A DNA stretch of 14,769 nt from NCBI GenBank assembly GCA_005397905.1, contig GCA_005397905.1_4318.1. One strand, given 5' to 3'. Below are positions 1 to 13,727 of the stretch, piece after piece; the stretch's first letter is position 1, and each line of letters starts with the position of its first letter. Origin of the DNA: Escherichia coli. GTDB lineage: Bacteria > Pseudomonadota > Gammaproteobacteria > Enterobacterales > Enterobacteriaceae. Below the pieces are notes generated by a model that saw only the letters and a list, made by a program, of their open reading frames with translations, did not search any database and was not told the origin of the DNA. The position numbers and the translations under genes are program-made.

Positions 1-193
1 TTACCTTTAATTGCTTTGCCATATTTGCCTTTTTGCCGAAGAAATCAAGGACAATTTCCAGCCTCGCGCGTAACCCTGCCCTTACCTCATCTTTTAAAAC
101 GTAGTAGCCTGATGGTCGTTTACGTTGCTTTTTGTCTTCGGTGCGGACTGTCCCGTTATTACCGTTAATGGTTCGCTTGTCTACTGCATTCAT
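1..193 (-). CDS. hypothetical protein, N-terminal fragment (gene continues beyond the left edge)
   Basis: Minus-strand ATG at 193-191 with GAGGTG Shine-Dalgarno 5 nt upstream (rc of 199-204); frame stays open to position 1 (64 codons, MNAVDKRTINGNNGTVRTEDKKQRKRPSGYY...). Not in the ORF track because it runs off the window. Confidence 0.45.
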   Translation of the reverse strand, partial: MNAVDKRTINGNNGTVRTEDKKQRKRPSGYYVLKDEVRAGLRARLEIVLDFFGKKANMAKQLKV

Positions 194-206
194 TTCATCA
201 CCTCAA

Positions 207-249
207 TAGCATTTTTTGTTAAAAGTCATTCCGATTTGATGGTAGTATT
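207..249 (+). promoter_or_regulatory. TAGCAC-type promoter-like element, variant TAGCAT-N3-TTGTTA, -10-like TAGTAT
   Basis: TAGCAT 207-212, TTGTTA 216-221, -10-like hexamer 243-248; upstream of the helicase ATG at 295. Its -10 overlaps the -10 of the divergent leftward promoter. Confidence 0.4.
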
Positions 250-275
250 GTACTCAATTAAACGCTACAAGACAA
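247..275 (-). promoter_or_regulatory. canonical sigma70-like promoter (TTGTCT-17-TACAAT) reading leftward
   Basis: On the minus strand: -35 TTGTCT (plus 275-270), 17-bp spacer, -10 TACAAT (plus 252-247); lies about 50 nt upstream of the leftward ATG at 193. Confidence 0.5.
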
Positions 276-294
276 TTTTTATAGGAATTTAGAT

Positions 295-2290: not shown

Positions 2291-2710
2291 ATGCAAATTA
2301 CAGATAAAGAAGATTACATTGAGTTTTACCCAGGCCCGGTTAAGTCATGCCCTAAAGAGGATAACGAACAAATATTTTGCTCTGATTGGGTTAAGTATAA
2401 CTACCCGGAGATGGTGTTCTTCCACTGCGTGAATGAGGGCAAGAAGACCATTGGTCAAGCAAGAAAGGACCAGGCTAAGGGGCTTCTCAAAGGCGTATCA
2501 GACTGCATGTTTCTTATTCCTGAATCTATCCGAGGAAAATACCCTTTTGGGGCCATAGAGCTAAAGAGGGCTGGGAAGACTCAGGCAAGCACAGTCAGCG
2601 ATGAACAAAAGTCCTTCCTAAAAAGCGTAAGGGAATCAGGAGGATTCGCTGCTGTAGCTTACGGTCGCGAGGGTTTTCTGGCAGCATTCAAACAAATGAT
2701 TTCAAAATAG
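2291..2710 (+). CDS. VRR-NUC domain (PD-(D/E)xK) nuclease
   Basis: 139-aa ORF starting 2 nt after the helicase stop; ...SDCMFLIPE...GAIELKRAGKTQ... fits the D/E...ExK core of VRR-NUC. Helicase plus VRR-NUC adjacency is a common phage module. Confidence 0.7.
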   Translation: MQITDKEDYIEFYPGPVKSCPKEDNEQIFCSDWVKYNYPEMVFFHCVNEGKKTIGQARKDQAKGLLKGVSDCMFLIPESIRGKYPFGAIELKRAGKTQASTVSDEQKSFLKSVRESGGFAAVAYGREGFLAAFKQMISK

Positions 2711-2750
2711 CACGAATTGCTAAAGACGTATCGGTGAAGTGGTGTATTAT
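2708..2750 (+). promoter_or_regulatory. TAGCAC-type promoter-like element
   Basis: TAGCAC 2708-2713 (its TAG is the stop codon of the VRR-NUC gene), TTGCTA 2717-2722, 22-bp spacer, TATTAT 2745-2750. The -10 sits in the loop of a 7-bp dyad (2735-2741 / 2751-2757). Confidence 0.55.
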
Positions 2751-2783
2751 CACTTCATCGAAAACAAACTGGGAGATAAAAAA

Positions 2784-3400: not shown

Positions 3401-3443
3401 TAGCACTTTTTGTTAAAACTCCAATCCATGGATTGATTATATT
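3401..3443 (+). promoter_or_regulatory. TAGCAC-type promoter-like element
   Basis: TAGCAC 3401-3406, TTGTTA 3410-3415, 22-bp spacer holding a perfect 12-bp palindrome AATCCATGGATT (3423-3434), TATATT 3438-3443. Confidence 0.55.
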
Positions 3444-3473
3444 AATCACACCAATAACGCAGAGGATTTAATA

Positions 3474-5425: not shown

Positions 5426-5980
5426 ATGACCAAATTGTTTATACTGAATGGGCCAGCTGGGGTCGGCAAAGATACAATTGCTGACGTCATGGTTAGTTCT
5501 GGCGCTTGCTGTGAGAAGGTTTCTTTTAAGTCACCCGTGTTTGATGTGGCTAAGGGTATGTTATCAAGCGATGAATTTGATTGGTTTATTGAAAACTACA
5601 ACAATAGAGACGAGAAAGATAAACCTCAGAAAATTCTCGGAGGTAAAACTATTCGAGAGTTTATGATATGGATTAGCGAATCAGTAATGAAACCTGTTTT
5701 TGGTAATGATGTCTTCGGCAGGAGATTGGCTAGTTCACTTGGTGATGGTTGCTATATTTGTGCTGACGGTGGATTTGCTAGCGAGATTGAGCCACTGATC
5801 GACGCTGGTGTTAAGGTCACGTTAATCAGGTTGCATAGGGCAGGGTACACATTTTATGGCGATAGTCGCTCATATATTCACGGGGTGTGTGAAAGAGAGA
5901 TTGATGTTCATGTTGTTGATGGTGATATTAATGGAACATCAGCATTGGTAAGGCACGTAATAAATAGCACGAATTGCTAA
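5426..5980 (+). CDS. deoxynucleoside monophosphate kinase-like P-loop kinase
   Basis: 184 aa; Walker A LNGPAGVGKDT; the N-terminal stretch KLFILNGPAGVGKDTIADVMVS resembles the N-terminus of the T4 gene 1 dNMP kinase as I recall it. GGAGA RBS. Protein ends ...NSTNC with the stop TAA supplied by a TTGCTAA element. Confidence 0.65.
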   Translation: MTKLFILNGPAGVGKDTIADVMVSSGACCEKVSFKSPVFDVAKGMLSSDEFDWFIENYNNRDEKDKPQKILGGKTIREFMIWISESVMKPVFGNDVFGRRLASSLGDGCYICADGGFASEIEPLIDAGVKVTLIRLHRAGYTFYGDSRSYIHGVCEREIDVHVVDGDINGTSALVRHVINSTNC

Positions 5981-6007
5981 AGATAATAGTAAAAACTGGG
6001 TTATCAT
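5965..6007 (+). promoter_or_regulatory. TAGCAC-type promoter-like element
   Basis: TAGCAC 5965-5970 inside the 3' end of the kinase gene; TTGCTA 5974-5979 (its TAA is the kinase stop); 22-bp spacer; TATCAT 6002-6007; leader CATCGAAACGAG...AACGAGGA. Confidence 0.55.
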
Positions 6008-6046
6008 TAACACATCGAAACGAGATGAACCAAACGAGGAAAAAAA

Positions 6047-7774: not shown

Positions 7775-9358
7775 TTACCCCAGCAGTCGCGGATTAATGT
7801 AAACCTTATCACCAATCAGGCAGGTGTAGTTTTTCTCATCAAGCATCGGAAGTAAATGGTCTTTAATCTTAGCCATTACGCCAGCCTGACCCTCAAACGG
7901 CCTAACCTTGCGTGCTGATTCATATAGTGAACGAAGTCCTACAACGCCCTTACTGTTCTTTCCTTGCTTAATCAATATGTCAATTAACTTGTTCATCTCT
8001 GCATTATCGCCAGCGTGACCAGCCGAACTAGCAGCAGAAAGGTAAGTTTTACTTTGTTCGTAAAACATGATAATTGCCTCTTGCATTGTCTCTAGGTCAA
8101 TTTGCCTTGACTTCAATGGCCGCTCATTATTCTTGCATGACCAGTTTCTTATTGTATGAAGAATTGCCGCCATTCGAATAACTTGCTTATCCATCTTGCC
8201 AAGAGCGCCACGCAGCATAGAGTGAGAGTATTTACCTCCATCCGCAAGGTGCGGCTCCATATCCTGGCGTGCTAGATTAAGATATCGCATAGCTGATTCT
8301 GAAATAGATAAATTAACTTGTGTTTCGTTCATAATGTTGTGAATCATTCTAAAGTAATCAGCTTTCAATTCGCCATCAACCGGTTCGTATGTCGACTCAC
8401 CTTTTTCATTAATAAAAACGCGATTTCCAATCATGGGGCGCTCCCTAACCAGCCAGAATCGCTCAGATACACCTATACCACGAGCACCAGCCTCCATAAT
8501 TGCATTGATTGTTTCATCCTGAGCTATTACAGCTATTGCGCCAAGCGCGGTAAACATCAAGTTGTTGTCAGCATTGGCGCGAGATATTGATATATTTCCA
8601 GAATCCCACGCCTTAAGAACTAACTCACTGTTTGTTTTCTTGCTGCCATCTCCGTAGGTCATCCCAAGCAATGAGTTAATTGCCGTTGCTTCGTCTGATA
8701 TTACCGCAAAGTTACCCTGTCGACTGTTTATTCGAGCCAGACCTTCAGGTGTTGTATCAGATACCGGAAAGACAATATCACACAGCTTTTCTAACTTCTC
8801 TTCTAAATCCTCTTTCTCCTCAAACAATGACGCCATTTCGGATGGCGACTTCTCCTGCTTCATCTCTTTCGCCAGCGCTGATAGCTTGGCCATAATCTTT
8901 TTTCTTTCACGCTTTCGCTGGTCATTGATTCGCTCAACCTCGGCTACCATTGGAGCTATTGCGAGTGAGTTAATGGCTGACTTACCAGTCGATGGTGGCT
9001 GGCTGGTTACTACGTACAGTGAGGTTGGTTGCTGCGTTCCGTGATACTCAACAGTAAAACGCCCTAGCATGGCAGCGGAAATACACCCCAGGAAATGCAT
9101 GTATGCGGAAGACTCTGGGAACTGAACAGATCGAGCGATATTGGATGAGAGTTTGCCAACAACATCAATATCATTTCCGAGTGAGATTACGGGATACTTG
9201 TCATTTGCAGCATCAATCTCCACTGGTGCTTTCCAGAATGATTGAGACTGGCGATAGCCATTTGCATTAATGGCGACTCGCAGTGGTGGGAGGTTGTCTG
9301 CGGCAGCAATTGCCATAACCTGTTCAACAGATAGTTTATCTTCGTTGAAATCAAACAT
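7775..9358 (-). CDS. P-loop NTPase of unknown function (527 aa), RecA/DnaB-like Walker A
   Basis: Walker A-like VVTSQPPSTGKSAI (about residues 115-128), Walker B-like FAVISDE (about 217-223), a highly charged predicted helix between them; GGAGAG RBS. N-terminal 43 aa and C-terminal 55 aa are homologous to the 181-aa ORF at 12482-13027. Confidence 0.8.
   Translation of the reverse strand: MFDFNEDKLSVEQVMAIAAADNLPPLRVAINANGYRQSQSFWKAPVEIDAANDKYPVISLGNDIDVVGKLSSNIARSVQFPESSAYMHFLGCISAAMLGRFTVEYHGTQQPTSLYVVTSQPPSTGKSAINSLAIAPMVAEVERINDQRKRERKKIMAKLSALAKEMKQEKSPSEMASLFEEKEDLEEKLEKLCDIVFPVSDTTPEGLARINSRQGNFAVISDEATAINSLLGMTYGDGSKKTNSELVLKAWDSGNISISRANADNNLMFTALGAIAVIAQDETINAIMEAGARGIGVSERFWLVRERPMIGNRVFINEKGESTYEPVDGELKADYFRMIHNIMNETQVNLSISESAMRYLNLARQDMEPHLADGGKYSHSMLRGALGKMDKQVIRMAAILHTIRNWSCKNNERPLKSRQIDLETMQEAIIMFYEQSKTYLSAASSAGHAGDNAEMNKLIDILIKQGKNSKGVVGLRSLYESARKVRPFEGQAGVMAKIKDHLLPMLDEKNYTCLIGDKVYINPRLLG
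9233..9262. repeat. 30-nt perfect inverted repeat, copy A (inside the NTPase gene)
   Basis: rc of 9233-9262 = AATGGCTATCGCCAGTCTCAATCATTCTGG, identical to 12584-12613, while flanking synonymous sites have diverged. Confidence 0.9.
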
Positions 9359-9388
9359 TACTTCTCTCCGTATTGTTTTTGAGAGGCC

Positions 9389-9431
9389 ATTATATCAACG
9401 GCCTCTTATAAAGCATTATCAATTTGTGCTA
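9389..9431 (-). promoter_or_regulatory. TAGCAC-type promoter-like element
   Basis: Minus strand reads TAGCAC-AAA-TTGATA, 22 bp, TATAAT (plus 9431-9389); the -10 lies in the loop of dyad AGAGGCC / GGCCTCT (9382-9388 / 9400-9406). Confidence 0.55.
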
Positions 9432-10134: not shown

Positions 10135-10170
10135 TTCTTTTACCCTTCGTTGTTTCGTTTCGATGAGTTT

Positions 10171-10213
10171 AATATACATGAAAAGCCACGAAGGGTTTTA
10201 GCAATTAGTGCTA
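10171..10213 (-). promoter_or_regulatory. TAGCAC-type promoter-like element
   Basis: Minus strand TAGCAC-TAA-TTGCTA (plus 10213-10199), 22 bp, TATATT (plus 10176-10171). Confidence 0.55.
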
Positions 10214-10788: not shown

Positions 10789-10816
10789 ATCCATCCCCTT
10801 GTTGTTAGTGAGTTAA

Positions 10817-10859
10817 CTGTAGCCTCGCCAGCAACAGATGTCTTTAGCAAAAAGTGCTA
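10817..10859 (-). promoter_or_regulatory. TAGCAC-type promoter-like element (weak -10)
   Basis: Minus strand TAGCAC-TTT-TTGCTA (plus 10859-10845); the -10 at the expected distance is only TACAGT/CTACAG-like. Confidence 0.4.
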
Positions 10860-11250: not shown

Positions 11251-11287
11251 GATGGTTTCCTTTAGTGCGTGTCGTTTCGATGAGGTA

Positions 11288-11331
11288 ATAATAGCAAATC
11301 ACAGTCTTTTGATTATTAGCAAAAAGTGCTA
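11288..11331 (-). promoter_or_regulatory. TAGCAC-type promoter-like element
   Basis: Minus strand TAGCAC-TTT-TTGCTA (plus 11331-11317), 23 bp, TATTAT (plus 11293-11288). Confidence 0.5.
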
Positions 11332-11357
11332 TTCGTTAGATTTATGTATTGTTGCAG

Positions 11358-11418
11358 ATATTGCAATGATTCACATGACTATTGCACATATAGCAATATT
11401 GCTTCCGATGCAATGATG
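11358..11418. promoter_or_regulatory. cluster of ATTGCAAT-type palindromic operator-like sites
   Basis: ATATTGCAATGAT (11358-11370), ATTGCACATATAGCAAT (11381-11397) and GATGCAATGATG (11407-11418) share TTGCA / TGCAAT half-sites. Confidence 0.35.
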
Positions 11419-11419
11419 T

Positions 11420-11502
11420 TTTTGATTGTTGCGAAAAGTGAAATGAAGTGGTGATTGAGTGAATGAAGGATTGATGGACTACCATACAAGTTGATTTTGA
11501 TT
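11420..11502. repeat. direct-repeat array with GATTG core (five copies) plus TGAA(A)TGAAG repeats
   Basis: TTGATT/GATTGA at 11422, 11453, 11469, 11491 and 11497; TGAAATGAAG (11439-11448) and TGAATGAAGG (11460-11469). Confidence 0.4.
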
Positions 11503-11645
11503 CTGGCTGAGCCATTTTGAGCATACGCGTTATAAAAGTTATGCCGTGTGGATGCGCCAGCTCCCCGCGGGAATCATGTACGCCTATCACGCTAAATTAC
11601 GCAATGGTTACATAATAATATCTATATATATCAACCATTTAGTAA

Positions 11646-11666
11646 TATTATTATTATTATTATTAT
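11646..11666. repeat. (TAT)7 trinucleotide microsatellite in an AT-rich tract
   Basis: Seven uninterrupted TAT units at 11646-11666, flanked by (TA)n and further AT-rich sequence. Confidence 0.8.
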
Positions 11667-11726
11667 ATACGTGTATATAATGTAGATAGTGGATATTGGA
11701 TATTGCGATAGTTTTCTATGATTTTT

Positions 11727-11762
11727 TCCTACACTTGTAGGAATGGTACTACACTGTAGGAA
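11727..11762. promoter_or_regulatory. two adjacent palindromic operator-like sites sharing a TGTAGGA half-site
   Basis: TCCTACA-CT-TGTAGGA (11727-11742) and CTACA-C-TGTAGG (11749-11760), centres about 21 bp apart. Confidence 0.4.
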
Positions 11763-11891
11763 TAAATAGGCATATATGGGCCAATCCACCATAAAAACTG
11801 ATGTACAAGCTGTACACGGTTTTACATTGAGCTATATCTGGGGTTGTGAGCTGAAAAGCGTAAATAAATTGAATTAAACCATGAATAACAC

Positions 11892-11920
11892 TTGATAACA
11901 TGTAACCGCGATGATATTAT
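11892..11920 (+). promoter_or_regulatory. canonical sigma70 promoter with extended -10 (TTGATA-17-TGaTATTAT)
   Basis: -35 TTGATA 11892-11897, 17-bp spacer, TG at 11912-11913, -10 TATTAT 11915-11920; about 40 nt upstream of the ATG at 11961 (CAGGAG RBS). Confidence 0.65.
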
Positions 11921-11960
11921 GCACCCATCTTAACGAAGGAAACCAATCAGGAGTATATCT

Positions 11961-12482
11961 ATGTCAAATCGCATTCAACCAGTAAGCCTTGGTGATGTTA
12001 TCCGCTACATGGCTAAGCAGGCGCTTAAGGCCGACAATCGGACTTTCCATGTTCCAATCCACCTGATAGCTCGCCAGGTTTACGGGCTAACGTCTGATGA
12101 TATTGGTCGAATCAGCGCTGAGGATCTCGAGAGTGGCGGCAAATACAGTTTGGCAAAGTTGAAGGCTTCATATGTCTCTAACACAGTTGCCAGGATGCCA
12201 GAGATTCAGGAGGCGAACGTTCGGGCTAAGCTGTCAATCAAGGACGGAGACTTTGGGGATGATGTTGATGTTCGATGCGCATACATCACCTTGGTCGATG
12301 GGGCAATACAGACAGGAAAGAGAGTGATGGCCAACAACCAGGTAGCCGATAAGGCTGTAAGCGACTTTAAGGCTAGAATCCTCAAGCTGATGCCATCAGT
12401 GACTGAGTTTGAAGGTGATGAGATTACCGGAGCCATCAAAGCAATTAAGATGTACCAGGAAATGATTAAGGAGGCAAAATAA
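11961..12482 (+). CDS. hypothetical protein (173 aa), first gene behind the canonical promoter
   Basis: ATG with CAGGAG RBS; no recognisable motif. Confidence 0.65.
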   Translation: MSNRIQPVSLGDVIRYMAKQALKADNRTFHVPIHLIARQVYGLTSDDIGRISAEDLESGGKYSLAKLKASYVSNTVARMPEIQEANVRAKLSIKDGDFGDDVDVRCAYITLVDGAIQTGKRVMANNQVADKAVSDFKARILKLMPSVTEFEGDEITGAIKAIKMYQEMIKEAK

Positions 12483-13027
12483 TGGGGATGTTTGATTTTA
12501 ACGAAGATAAGCTAACTAATGATGAGATTATGAAGATTGCCATGCGGGATGGACTTCCTCCGCTACGGGTTGCAATCAACGCTAATGGCTATCGCCAGTC
12601 TCAATCATTCTGGTGTAGTGTTGAGGAGTTGCTCAGCGCAAAGCTCAACAGCAAGTCTGGCGTAGTTATGTGTAAGATTCACGGACAGAGCAGGAATGGC
12701 AAGGGGGTTGTCGGAATTCGATCAACATATGAAGCGCTGAGAAAGGTCAAGCCATTCGCCGGACTCAACGGAGTCATGCATGACCTGAAAAATAACATCC
12801 TGCCATCGTTACAGGACGCAGGAATCATCTGCTTAATCGGGGATAAGATTTACGTGCATCCATACATCGTTGGCATGCATGCGATAGAAGTTGAAGAGTG
12901 GTGCGACACCTGGGCTGTTGATGAGCATGCTAGTAGACTACCATACCACTTACGGTACGACGAAGATGAGGTAGAGAAGGCGATTGAGTTCTACCGGAAA
13001 GCTAAATCACTCCTGACCGGTAAATAG
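12482..13027 (+). CDS. hypothetical protein (181 aa), truncated paralog of the 527-aa NTPase lacking the P-loop core
   Basis: MFDFNEDKL...LPPLRVAINANGYRQSQSFW matches the NTPase N-terminus (20 consecutive residues identical); KGVVGIRSTYEALRKVKPF...CLIGDKIYVHP is about 55% identical to the NTPase C-terminus; no Walker motifs. AAGGAGG RBS; stop TAG is part of a TAGCAC element. Confidence 0.75.
   Translation: MGMFDFNEDKLTNDEIMKIAMRDGLPPLRVAINANGYRQSQSFWCSVEELLSAKLNSKSGVVMCKIHGQSRNGKGVVGIRSTYEALRKVKPFAGLNGVMHDLKNNILPSLQDAGIICLIGDKIYVHPYIVGMHAIEVEEWCDTWAVDEHASRLPYHLRYDEDEVEKAIEFYRKAKSLLTGK
12584..12613. repeat. 30-nt perfect inverted repeat, copy B (inside the paralog gene)
   Basis: AATGGCTATCGCCAGTCTCAATCATTCTGG at 12584-12613, in inverted orientation relative to 9233-9262. 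Confidence 0.9.
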
Positions 13028-13067
13028 CACTAATTGCTAAACAATAAATCGGGTAGTCAGCTATGAT
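13025..13067 (+). promoter_or_regulatory. TAGCAC-type promoter-like element
   Basis: TAGCAC 13025-13030 (TAG is the stop of the paralog gene), TTGCTA 13034-13039, 22 bp, TATGAT 13062-13067. Confidence 0.5.
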
Positions 13068-13098
13068 TACCATATCAACCAAACGAGAGGGAAGAAAG

Positions 13099-13523: not shown

Positions 13524-13657
13524 TTTACATCCACACTTACTACACTGGCAAGTTCAATAGCGTTAAGCACGTTCGGGTTCACGATACCTACGATAGCGCA
13601 AAGGCTCAGTGGTTGGTTCTTGGCGGCGATATTAATTCATATAGAATCGCTGAGTAG
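13520..13657 (+). CDS. hypothetical small protein (45 aa)
   Basis: ATG overlapping the upstream stop (ATGA); MIYIHTYYTGKFNSVKHVRVHDTYDSAKAQWLVLGGDINSYRIAE; stop TAG is the TAG of a TAGCAC element. Confidence 0.4.
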   Translation: MIYIHTYYTGKFNSVKHVRVHDTYDSAKAQWLVLGGDINSYRIAE

Positions 13658-13697
13658 CACGAATTGTTAAAACAGCATTGGGGTAATTTGTTATAAT
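13655..13697 (+). promoter_or_regulatory. TAGCAC-type promoter-like element
   Basis: TAGCAC 13655-13660, TTGTTA 13664-13669, 22 bp, TATAAT 13692-13697 within dyad TGGGGTAAT/ATTGCCCCA; leader CATCGAAACTAACGAGGAAG. Confidence 0.55.
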
Positions 13698-13727
13698 TGC
13701 CCCATCGAAACTAACGAGGAAGCAGAA

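What the first reader, a model, noticed from the sequence alone, without database searches (positions are those of the whole stretch)
11892..13027. The only rightward canonical sigma70 promoter drives the 173-aa protein and the truncated paralog, candidate regulators of the TAGCAC class
TTGATA-17-TGaTATTAT at 11892-11920 is a near-consensus host promoter with an extended -10, unlike the eleven TAGCAC elements. Its first products (11961-12482 and 12482-13027) are therefore likely made by unmodified host polymerase, and are reasonable candidates for whatever factor activates or remodels transcription at the TAGCAC elements.
Basis: inference. Interest (0 to 1): 0.5.

Follow-up and report, generated by a model that had tools for sequence, protein, structure and literature searches.

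The report
Early host promoter of T1-like phage
This is the conserved early promoter at the left end of a T1-like coliphage genome, read by the host's own RNA polymerase; the two proteins it drives (one of unknown function, one a helicase copy with its motor deleted) are probably not the regulators of the phage's repeated TAGCAC promoter elements, for which a conserved Cro-like protein is the better candidate.

Summary
TTGATA-17-TGaTATTAT (11892-11920) is the best sigma70 match in the window. A match this good appears in 31% of shuffled windows, so its support is position and conservation: 11 Drexlerviridae that carry the DUF7174 gene have a promoter at this spot, and Klebsiella phage GH-K3, which lacks that gene, has one before its first right-early gene.

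It drives two translationally coupled genes. One is DUF7174 (rtp1 family, 173 aa). The other (181 aa) is a truncated paralog of the phage's own 527-aa DUF3987 helicase (7775-9358, minus strand). It keeps the N-terminal 51 aa and the basic C-terminal winged helix but lacks the ATPase core.

The TAGCAC elements are the published T1/TLS repeat aaATAGCACnnnTTGnTAAAA, whose function is unknown. Here they resolve into promoter modules: a TAGCA-N5-TGCTA palindrome centred at -42, no -35, a -10 that is often extended, and a conserved leader.

The proposed regulator role is poorly supported. GH-K3 has 11 identical modules but neither protein. T1 has 18, no 181-aa protein, and only a sub-threshold DUF7174 relative. 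A Cro-like HTH regulator co-occurs with the modules in all four genomes scanned. It has its own conserved canonical promoter; its 5' end is at 1-193 (minus strand).

The parts
11892..11920 (+). Early-right sigma70 promoter: -35 TTGATA (11892-11897), 17-nt spacer, TG (11912-11913), -10 TATTAT (11915-11920)
   Evidence: Conserved in 11 relatives and positionally in GH-K3. Annotated as a promoter in the EC3a record.
11927..11960 (+). Predicted transcript start (A of CATCTTAACGA) and a 34-nt leader with the AGGAG ribosome-binding site at 11950-11954. The -10 and leader resemble those of the TAGCAC modules.
   Evidence: Inferred from -10 spacing. The leader is conserved. It shows 72% complementarity to the leftward module's -10 and leader (pair I1).
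11961..12482 (+). 173-aa DUF7174 protein (rtp1 / JK_47 family), function unknown. The model has an N-terminal alpha/beta domain with a long beta-hairpin and two C-terminal long helices.
12482..13027 (+). 181-aa truncated paralog of the DUF3987 helicase: N-terminal about 51 aa, a winged helix (about aa 54-131, pI 9.8) and an extra acidic tail. No ATPase core.
7775..9358 (-). 527-aa DUF3987 helicase with a C-terminal winged helix; the full-length parent of the 181-aa paralog.
   Evidence: Pfam PF13148, E 4.5e-41.
13025..13074 (+). TAGCAC promoter module directly after the 181-aa gene; its TAG is that gene's stop codon. Palindrome 13025-13039, -10 TATGAT 13062-13067, predicted start about 13074.
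13655..13704 (+). TAGCAC module: palindrome 13655-13669, TGt-TATAAT 13692-13697.
11281..11331 (-). TAGCAC module of the leftward operon, divergent from the sigma70 promoter: palindrome 11331-11317, TGc-TATTAT 11293-11288.
10809..10859 (-). TAGCAC module (-10 TACAGT).
10164..10213 (-). TAGCAC module (-10 TATATT).
9382..9431 (-). TAGCAC module in front of the DUF3987 helicase gene (TGa-TATAAT).
207..255 (+). TAGCAT-variant module in front of the 664-aa SF2 helicase gene. Its palindrome (207-221) lies between the regulator gene's promoter and its ATG.
2708..2757 (+). TAGCAC module.
3401..3450 (+). TAGCAC module.
5965..6014 (+). TAGCAC module.
1..193 (-). First 64 codons of the Cro-like HTH regulator (T1 ST23 / bas03_0040 homolog). 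The gene runs off the left end of the window.
   Evidence: Sub-threshold P22_Cro match on the full-length JulesPiccard homolog.
247..275 (-). Canonical sigma70-like promoter of the regulator gene: TTGTCT-17-TACAAT.
   Evidence: Conserved position in T1 (TTGAAT-17-TATAAT) and GH-K3 (TTGTCA-16-TATAAT).

Best explanation
The window is a contig of a T1-like coliphage (Drexlerviridae, Braunvirinae; about 90% identical to vB_EcoS_FP and JulesPiccard).

The site at 11892-11920 is the family's conserved early-right promoter. It lies about 550 bp inside the point that corresponds to T1's mature left genome end. Unmodified host sigma70 RNA polymerase most likely starts at about 11927. It would then transcribe two translationally coupled genes and read on into a string of small early genes, each of which also has its own TAGCAC module. 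That read-through is inferred from sequence, not measured.

The two products are lineage-restricted accessory early proteins, not the general TAGCAC factor.
- The 181-aa protein is an internally deleted copy of the phage's DUF3987 helicase. It keeps the N-terminal module and the basic ORC/Cdc6-like winged helix and has lost the ATPase. Its most likely role is as a non-catalytic competitor or adaptor at whatever DNA site or partner the helicase recognises. That would modulate the start of replication. This is inference.
- DUF7174 is a small protein restricted to these phages. Its role is unproven. A nucleic-acid-binding dimer is the best guess.

The TAGCAC elements are the upstream half of a roughly 50-bp promoter module:
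- palindrome TAGCA-N5-TGCTA centred at -42;
- no -35;
- a TAtaaT -10 with G at -14;
- a start at the A of CATCGAAAC.

This is the geometry of promoters helped by a dimeric helix-turn-helix protein, as at lambda PRM/OR2 or CRP class II promoters. The best candidate for the binding protein is the core Cro-like regulator, which is itself made from a canonical promoter.
For: Identity of the phage.

Promoter:
- Sequence and rank.
- Conservation: 11 of 11 DUF7174-bearing relatives keep the -35 and -10 and 10 of 11 keep the TG, with diverged spacers. GH-K3 has one at the equivalent place. EC3a carries a promoter annotation there.
- Position relative to T1's left end.

p181:
- Paralogy to the helicase.
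- Winged-helix fold.
- Basic winged helix.
- No ATPase domain.

TAGCAC module anatomy, from 53 copies in four genomes:
- the spacer is 22 nt in 40 of 50;
- the -10 matches at least 5/6 in 35 of 50, against 2% of control positions;
- G at -14 in 40 of 50 and TGn in 21 of 50;
- the best -35 match is 3/6 or less in 39 of 50;
- the predicted start base is A in 41 of 50.

Published description of the repeat, with function left open: PMC11447400.

Distribution:
- Regulator 825 records, DUF7174 160, full-length p181 109.
- GH-K3 and T1 keep the modules without these two proteins.

Regulator:
- 50-66% identical across genera, with an invariant N-terminal region and a conserved HTH.
- Its own promoter is conserved, and the palindrome lies between that promoter and its ATG.
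Against: - No transcript data: the start site, timing and polymerase requirement are all inferred.
- The promoter match is not significant by shuffling (31%).
- The HTH match of the regulator is below Pfam's cut-off (26.1 against 30.2 bits), and nothing shows that it binds the palindrome.
- T1's first gene gives weak DUF7174 signals (Pfam 21.3 bits; hhalign E 0.002, probability 12%; Foldseek hit to the 191-aa first-gene protein of a T1-like phage, E 1e-3). DUF7174-like proteins may therefore be more widespread than BLAST shows. Only GH-K3 is a clean negative, and it is a single genome.
- About 40% of modules have a full TGn and could work with host polymerase alone.
- No origin has been mapped in these phages, so the replication role proposed for p181 is an analogy.
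Confidence: 0.55

Rival explanations
1. DUF7174 and/or the 181-aa protein, made first by host polymerase, are the factors that activate or remodel transcription at the TAGCAC elements.
For: - They are the first genes behind the best canonical promoter.
- p181 has a basic winged helix.
- The TAGCAC modules lack a -35, so some helper is plausible.
Against: - GH-K3 has 11 modules of identical consensus but neither protein.
- T1 has 18 modules, no p181, and only a sub-threshold DUF7174-like first gene.
- G8, ES, EC3a and Rogue1 have no p181-sized gene annotated after DUF7174.
- DUF7174 is found in 160 records and p181 in 109, against 825 for the HTH regulator.
- p181's modules derive from a replication helicase.
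- An invariant DNA motif would be expected to go with a conserved binder.
Confidence: 0.1
2. No phage factor is needed. The TAGCAC modules are host sigma70 extended -10 promoters, and the upstream box acts only as a cis enhancer (UP-like, or an odd -35 surrogate). On this view the 11892 promoter is simply one host promoter among many, and no regulator is waiting to be found.
For: - G at -14 in 40 of 50 modules, full TGn in 21 of 50, and a good -10 in most.
- The 11892 promoter and the modules share the same -10, leader and start design.
- Modules precede early, replication, lysis and structural genes alike.
- The TLS paper lists an UP-like role as one option.
- No phage RNA polymerase or sigma factor was found in TLS, according to that paper.
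Against: - A perfect 5+5 dyad with fixed N5 spacing, kept across genera, looks like a site for a protein dimer rather than an A/T-rich UP element.
- 29 of 50 modules lack TGn as well as a -35.
- The TTGCTA to -10 spacing of 22 nt cannot serve as a -35.
Confidence: 0.25
3. The TAGCAC dyad is a repressor or 'stoperator'-type site. The Cro-like regulator, or another protein, binds it to shut modules down or to block read-through. On this view the canonical promoters are those that escape such control.
For: - The TLS authors raise stoperators as a possibility.
- The dyad of the helicase module lies downstream of the regulator's own promoter, a position suited to autorepression.
- The regulator's weak family matches are to Cro, DicC and RacR repressors.
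Against: - The dyad is always oriented with the downstream gene and fixed at -42, just upstream of the core promoter. It does not lie over the -10 or the start site. This is an activator position rather than an occluding one.
- The modules lack a -35, which argues for help rather than hindrance.
Confidence: 0.12
4. The sigma70 match at 11892 is a chance match with no function.
For: A match this good occurs in 31% of shuffled windows.
Against: - It is conserved at the same distance from the first gene in 11 phages of several subfamilies, despite spacer divergence, and a promoter is present at the equivalent place in a Klebsiella phage.
- It sits in the only long non-coding region of the window and has a conserved leader and ribosome-binding site.
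Confidence: 0.04

Closest known systems
Direct repeats aaATAGCACnnnTTGnTAAAA of phage TLS, also noted in T1, Rtp and Rogue1 (PMC11447400, 2024)
   Same: Same consensus, same orientation with transcription, and a similar distance to start codons: 73-88 nt for four modules here (207, 5965, 9431, 13655; coordinates), against about 76 in TLS.
   Different: The paper leaves the function open (stoperator, enhancer site or UP element). It does not describe the dyad symmetry, the fixed 22-nt distance to a -10 hexamer, the conserved start and leader, or the hairpins.
Lambda PRM with cI at OR2, and CRP/FNR class II promoters (from my own knowledge of these systems)
   Same: A dyad site for a dimeric helix-turn-helix protein centred at about -42, a weak or absent -35, and a usable -10.
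   Different: No activator has been shown here. Membership is untested beyond geometry. The element is repeated 10-18 times per genome and is fused to a conserved leader.
Early sigma70 promoters at the entering end of virulent coliphages such as T7 A1-A3 and T5 early promoters (own knowledge); promoter annotated in the vB_EcoS_CEB_EC3a record
   Same: A near-consensus host promoter in front of the first genes near the genome end. The EC3a record marks a promoter at the same place.
   Different: A single promoter rather than a cluster. Timing has not been measured.
Initiator proteins with a C-terminal origin-binding winged helix (phage P4 alpha; ORC/Cdc6), and shortened initiator forms that regulate replication (short pi forms of R6K; papillomavirus E8^E2). 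These comparisons come from my own knowledge.
   Different: It is encoded by a separate duplicated gene, not made by an internal start or by splicing. No origin or DNA binding has been shown. It has an extra acidic C-terminal tail that the helicase lacks.

Membership tests
sigma70 promoter, extended -10 type | -35 hexamer close to TTGACA, 16-18 nt spacer, -10 hexamer with A at position 2 and T at position 6 | tested here: met
   TTGATA (5/6), 17 nt, TATTAT (5/6).
sigma70 promoter, extended -10 type | TG one base upstream of the -10 hexamer | tested here: met
   TG at 11912-11913; kept in 10 of 11 relatives.
sigma70 promoter, extended -10 type | More than a chance match; conserved position before a gene | tested here: met
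   Not significant by shuffling (31%), but conserved in 11 relatives and in GH-K3.
sigma70 promoter, extended -10 type | Mapped transcription start that depends on the host holoenzyme | not testable with these tools
   No transcript data were found.
DUF7174 (Pfam PF23796) | Score above Pfam's gathering cut-off | tested here: met
   170.7 bits against a cut-off of 27.
DUF3987 helicase (Pfam PF13148) | DUF3987 ATPase/helicase core present in the 181-aa protein | tested here: not met
   No Pfam hit in p181. Only aa 1-51 and 433-527 of the 527-aa helicase are represented.
Winged-helix domain of ORC/Cdc6 type | Fold match of p181's C-terminal half | tested here: met
Winged-helix domain of ORC/Cdc6 type | Binds DNA | not testable with these tools
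   Only a basic pI of 9.8 for the domain.
T1/TLS ATAGCACnnnTTGnTAAAA repeat | Consensus, intergenic position, orientation with the downstream gene | tested here: met
   10 copies in the window, all pointing at a start codon; described in PMC11447400.
Class II activator-dependent promoter (lambda PRM / CRP class II geometry) | Dyad site centred near -41.5/-42, poor -35, functional -10 | tested here: met
   Spacer 22 nt in 40 of 50, which puts the centre at -42. Best -35 match 3/6 or less in 39 of 50. The -10 matches at least 5/6 in 35 of 50.
Class II activator-dependent promoter (lambda PRM / CRP class II geometry) | A protein that binds the dyad and raises transcription | not testable with these tools
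   The candidate is the Cro-like regulator.
   DUF7174 and p181 are absent from GH-K3, which has 11 modules. p181 is absent from T1, which has 18, and DUF7174 is only sub-threshold there. The HTH regulator is present in all four genomes scanned (only its first 64 codons fall within the window).
sigma54 promoter | GG and GC exactly ten bases apart (TGGCAC-N5-TTGC) | tested here: not met
   TAGCAC-N3-TTGC is two bases too short and has AG in place of GG. The consensus is quoted from my own knowledge.
T4 middle promoter (MotA box) | MotA box centred at -30, replacing the -35 | tested here: not met
   The element is centred at -42 and is a dyad. MotA or AsiA homologs were not specifically searched for.

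The most novel reading that the evidence does not exclude
The two early proteins could be a lineage-specific layer of control laid over the TAGCAC modules. In this reading the helicase-derived winged helix of p181, or a DUF7174 dimer, recognises the module's dyad, or the hairpin that encloses its -10 hexamer in two thirds of copies. The canonical promoter would then set a timer for a structured class of promoters in Braunvirinae and Rogunavirinae. That would be a replication-protein fragment recruited as a transcription factor.
Probability: 0.07. Interest if true: 0.6.

Novelty: new member of a known kind. Interest (0 to 1): 0.33.

Why it matters
T1-like phages are common laboratory and industrial contaminants and are candidates for phage therapy, yet their transcription programme is essentially unmapped.

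A 2024 reannotation of TLS found only three sigma70-like promoters and about 20 TAGCAC repeats of unknown role. This analysis does three things:
- It places one of the few canonical promoters as a conserved early promoter.
- It shows that its products are accessory proteins, one of them a helicase with its motor deleted.
- It turns the repeat into a defined promoter module (dyad at -42, -10, fixed start) with a named candidate binding protein.

That makes the open question directly testable with a reporter assay and a gel-shift assay.

Tried and rejected
- Paralogy between the 173-aa and 181-aa proteins: none (E 0.89).
- p181 against the 664-aa SF2 helicase: none.
- Profile searches of PDB sequences for both proteins: nothing.
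- PADLOC and NCBIfam: nothing useful.
- Rfam on the whole window: no family.
- Foldseek against viral models: only uncharacterised relatives in T1-like phages.
- The afdb50 library was unavailable.
- My own HMM built from 55 family representatives did not recover T1 ST77 or any GH-K3 ORF. The T1 link therefore rests only on Pfam's sub-threshold hit and a low-probability hhalign match.
- A search for distant regulator homologs, meant to test covariation with the dyad, failed. The 120 best of its 153 clusters are at least 46% identical, and the large contigs among them are Drexlerviridae-sized, about 45-52 kb.
- sigma54 and T4 MotA-box readings of TAGCAC-N3-TTGCTA: rejected on spacing and position.
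- TTGCTA as a -35: rejected, because the spacer is 22 nt.
- Literature: nothing on DUF7174. No transcript maps for Drexlerviridae were found. The Rtp genome paper is not held.

Full report
**What the window is.** The region 11600-13300 matches Escherichia phages vB_EcoS_FP (91.6%) and JulesPiccard/Bas03 (89%), both Drexlerviridae, Braunvirinae. Gene order follows JulesPiccard and T1:
- SF2 helicase, small genes and the lysis cassette;
- a leftward operon that contains a second helicase;
- a non-coding gap of about 700 bp;
- a rightward string of small early genes leading towards terminase.

An identical 181-aa protein is on record from a 14,769-bp contig labelled Escherichia coli. The window is therefore a whole phage contig within a bacterial assembly.

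**The observation.** TTGATA (11892-11897), a 17-nt spacer, TG (11912-11913) and TATTAT (11915-11920) are present as described and give the best score in the scan. By sequence alone this proves little. A site of at least 10/12 with TGn turns up in 31% of shuffled windows. Sites of at least 10/12 are actually rarer than expected (2 against 5.6).

What makes the site credible is its context:
- It lies in the only long intergenic region.
- It is 34 nt upstream of an ATG that has an AGGAG ribosome-binding site.
- The same -35 and -10 recur at the same distance before the DUF7174 gene in 11 phages from several subfamilies, with the TG kept in 10 of them, although their spacers differ.
- Klebsiella phage GH-K3 has TTGACG-17-TATTAT before its unrelated first right-early gene.
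- The EC3a record annotates a promoter at this spot.

The other rightward 10/12 site (14635) lies inside an ORF.

The -10, the spacing to the start and the leader (CATCTTAACGA) resemble those of the TAGCAC modules (pair I1).

**The two products.**

The first is a clear DUF7174 member (E 2e-50), the rtp1/JK_47 family.
- The family is small: 59 clusters at 50% identity among 1.84 billion proteins. Every relative identified by name comes from a T1-like phage.
- The AF2 model (pLDDT 77) has an N-terminal alpha/beta domain with a long beta-hairpin, an invariant polar helix and two long C-terminal helices.

The second protein is not related to the first. It is a truncated paralog of the 527-aa DUF3987 helicase at 7775-9358 on the minus strand.
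- Residues 3-53 are 69% identical to helicase residues 1-51.
- Residues 37-131 are 40% identical to helicase residues 433-527.
- The ATPase core in between is missing.

**The TAGCAC elements.** Nine of the 12 TAGCAC hexamers, plus one TAGCAT variant, belong to a long motif. That motif is the repeat aaATAGCACnnnTTGnTAAAA published for TLS and noted there for T1, Rtp and Rogue1. Its function was left open between stoperator, enhancer site and UP element, and only three sigma70-like promoters were found in TLS (PMC11447400).

I collected 53 copies: 10 from the window, 14 from JulesPiccard, 18 from T1 and 11 from GH-K3. They show a fixed design:
- a dyad, TAGCA-N5-TGCTA;
- then 22 nt (40 of 50 copies);
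- then a -10 hexamer, matching at least 5/6 in 35 of 50 against 2% of control positions;
- G at -14 in 40 of 50 and a full TGn in 21 of 50;
- six bases further on, the A of CATCGAAAC (A in 41 of 50);
- then a ribosome-binding site and the start codon.

At canonical spacing there is no -35 (3/6 or less in 39 of 50). The dyad centre falls at -42. That is the position of cI at OR2 for lambda PRM and of CRP at class II promoters (my own knowledge).

**Who acts on them.** The cis element is essentially unchanged across four genera, so its binding protein should be conserved as well.
- GH-K3 has 11 modules but no DUF7174 and no stand-alone p181.
- T1 has 18 modules and no p181. Its first gene ST77 gives only a sub-threshold DUF7174 signal (Pfam 21.3 bits against a cut-off of 27; hhalign probability 12%).
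- G8, ES, EC3a and Rogue1 have no p181-sized gene annotated after DUF7174.
- In the phage collection DUF7174 is found in 160 records and full-length p181 in 109.

By contrast a 150-160-aa protein with a Cro-like helix-turn-helix (T1 ST23, bas03_0040) is found in 825 records.
- It is 50-66% identical between T1, JulesPiccard and GH-K3.
- Its first 64 codons are in the window, at 1-193 on the minus strand.
- In all four genomes it has its own canonical promoter: TTGTCT-17-TACAAT at 275->247 here, TTGAAT-17-TATAAT in T1 and TTGTCA-16-TATAAT in GH-K3.
- In all four, the dyad of the divergent helicase module lies between that promoter and the regulator's ATG. That layout would let one bound dimer help the helicase promoter and dampen its own.

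None of this shows binding. The HTH match is below Pfam's cut-off. Many modules have an extended -10 and might need no helper at all.

**Most likely working model.**
- Shown: the promoter's sequence and its conservation; the identity and domain make-up of the two proteins; the module anatomy; the distribution of the candidate factors.
- Inferred: host polymerase fires the 11892 promoter early. DUF7174 and p181 are accessory early proteins. p181 competes or cooperates with the full helicase at its DNA site or partner, through the shared N-terminal and winged-helix modules, and so tunes the start of replication. The Cro-like regulator binds the dyads.

I put about 0.85 on the promoter being real and about 0.1 on either product being the TAGCAC factor.

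**Verdict.** The finding is a correct reading of an ordinary feature, a conserved early host-type promoter, combined with an interpretation that the comparative data mostly contradict. Its value is indirect. It points to a published but unexplained repeat, and that repeat can now be described as a promoter module with a specific candidate regulator.

Noticed in passing
window 2725-2757, 9395-9425, 13049-13071, 13677-13703 and other modules; L012, L003 and L013 copies: In 33 of 53 TAGCAC modules a stable hairpin (z below -1.5 against shuffles; mean z -2.6) has arms that flank or overlap the -10 hexamer. The arm sequences differ between copies, for example GGGGTA..TACCCC, AAGGCCA..TGGCCTT and GAGGCC..GGCCTC. 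Some carry a GAAA loop followed by a T-run, and the T1 record annotates these as terminators. They may be 3'-end hairpins for the upstream gene packed into the next promoter, or a structured promoter. This is unexplained.
   Followed up: partly
window 11340-11450: A cluster of TTGCA/TGCAA repeats (ATTGTTGCAGATATTGCAATGA, three copies). It aligns with the first bases of the T1 record, where the annotated terminal repeat begins, and with the end of the GH-K3 record. It is probably the pac/terminus region. Several phage records start here.
   Followed up: partly
window 11600-11700: An (ATT)6 microsatellite inside an AT-rich TATATA stretch, flanked by TTACGC-like repeats. The layout recurs in the intergenic regions of the 11 relatives examined and in T1 and GH-K3. 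It could be an origin-like unwinding region; no origin has been mapped in these phages.
   Followed up: no
window 11726-11765: Two adjacent palindromes, TTCCTACAcTTGTAGGAA and TACTACActGTAGGAA, about 130-165 bp upstream of the -35 hexamer. They are conserved in JulesPiccard, FP, P817 and Rogue1, and in altered form in JeanPiccard and CJ19. They are absent from G8, ES, AHS24 and EC3a. The binding protein is unknown.
   Followed up: partly
window 11898-11905: The spacer next to the -35 carries a conserved ACAYGT/ACACGT palindrome in the DUF7174-bearing phages (TTGATAACATGTAAC, TTGATAACGTGTAT, TTGACTACACGTGTAAG). GH-K3 does not have it. It may be an operator for shut-off of the early promoter.
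   Followed up: no
window 1-294: Face-to-face promoters. The regulator's -10 (252->247, minus strand) overlaps the -10 of the helicase TAGCAT module (243-248, plus strand). The window is cut inside the regulator gene.
   Followed up: yes
whole window: Canonical sigma70-like matches are under-represented: 24 against 34.4 expected at 9/12 or better, and 2 against 5.6 at 10/12 or better. This fits a genome that relies on a different promoter design.
   Followed up: partly
window 12330-12479 and 12875-13024: The C-terminal helices of DUF7174 and the tail of p181 each come in two alternative versions that are shuffled among relatives. The p181 tail plus the following TAGCAC module is conserved at DNA level in phages that lack the rest of the gene (query 1323-1503). 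Both tails and helicase residues 422-442 share a loose AIxx[FM]Y helix motif.
   Followed up: no
window 2739/2784, 13063/13099, 10179/10134: Predicted module start sites lie downstream of the first in-frame start codons given by the mechanical ORF list. The true starts of these small genes are therefore probably the later ATGs, each with a ribosome-binding site.
   Followed up: partly
whole window: The identical 181-aa protein is recorded from a 14,769-bp NCBI contig named Escherichia coli. The window is therefore a lytic-phage contig inside a bacterial assembly (carry-over or an infected culture), not a prophage.
   Followed up: no
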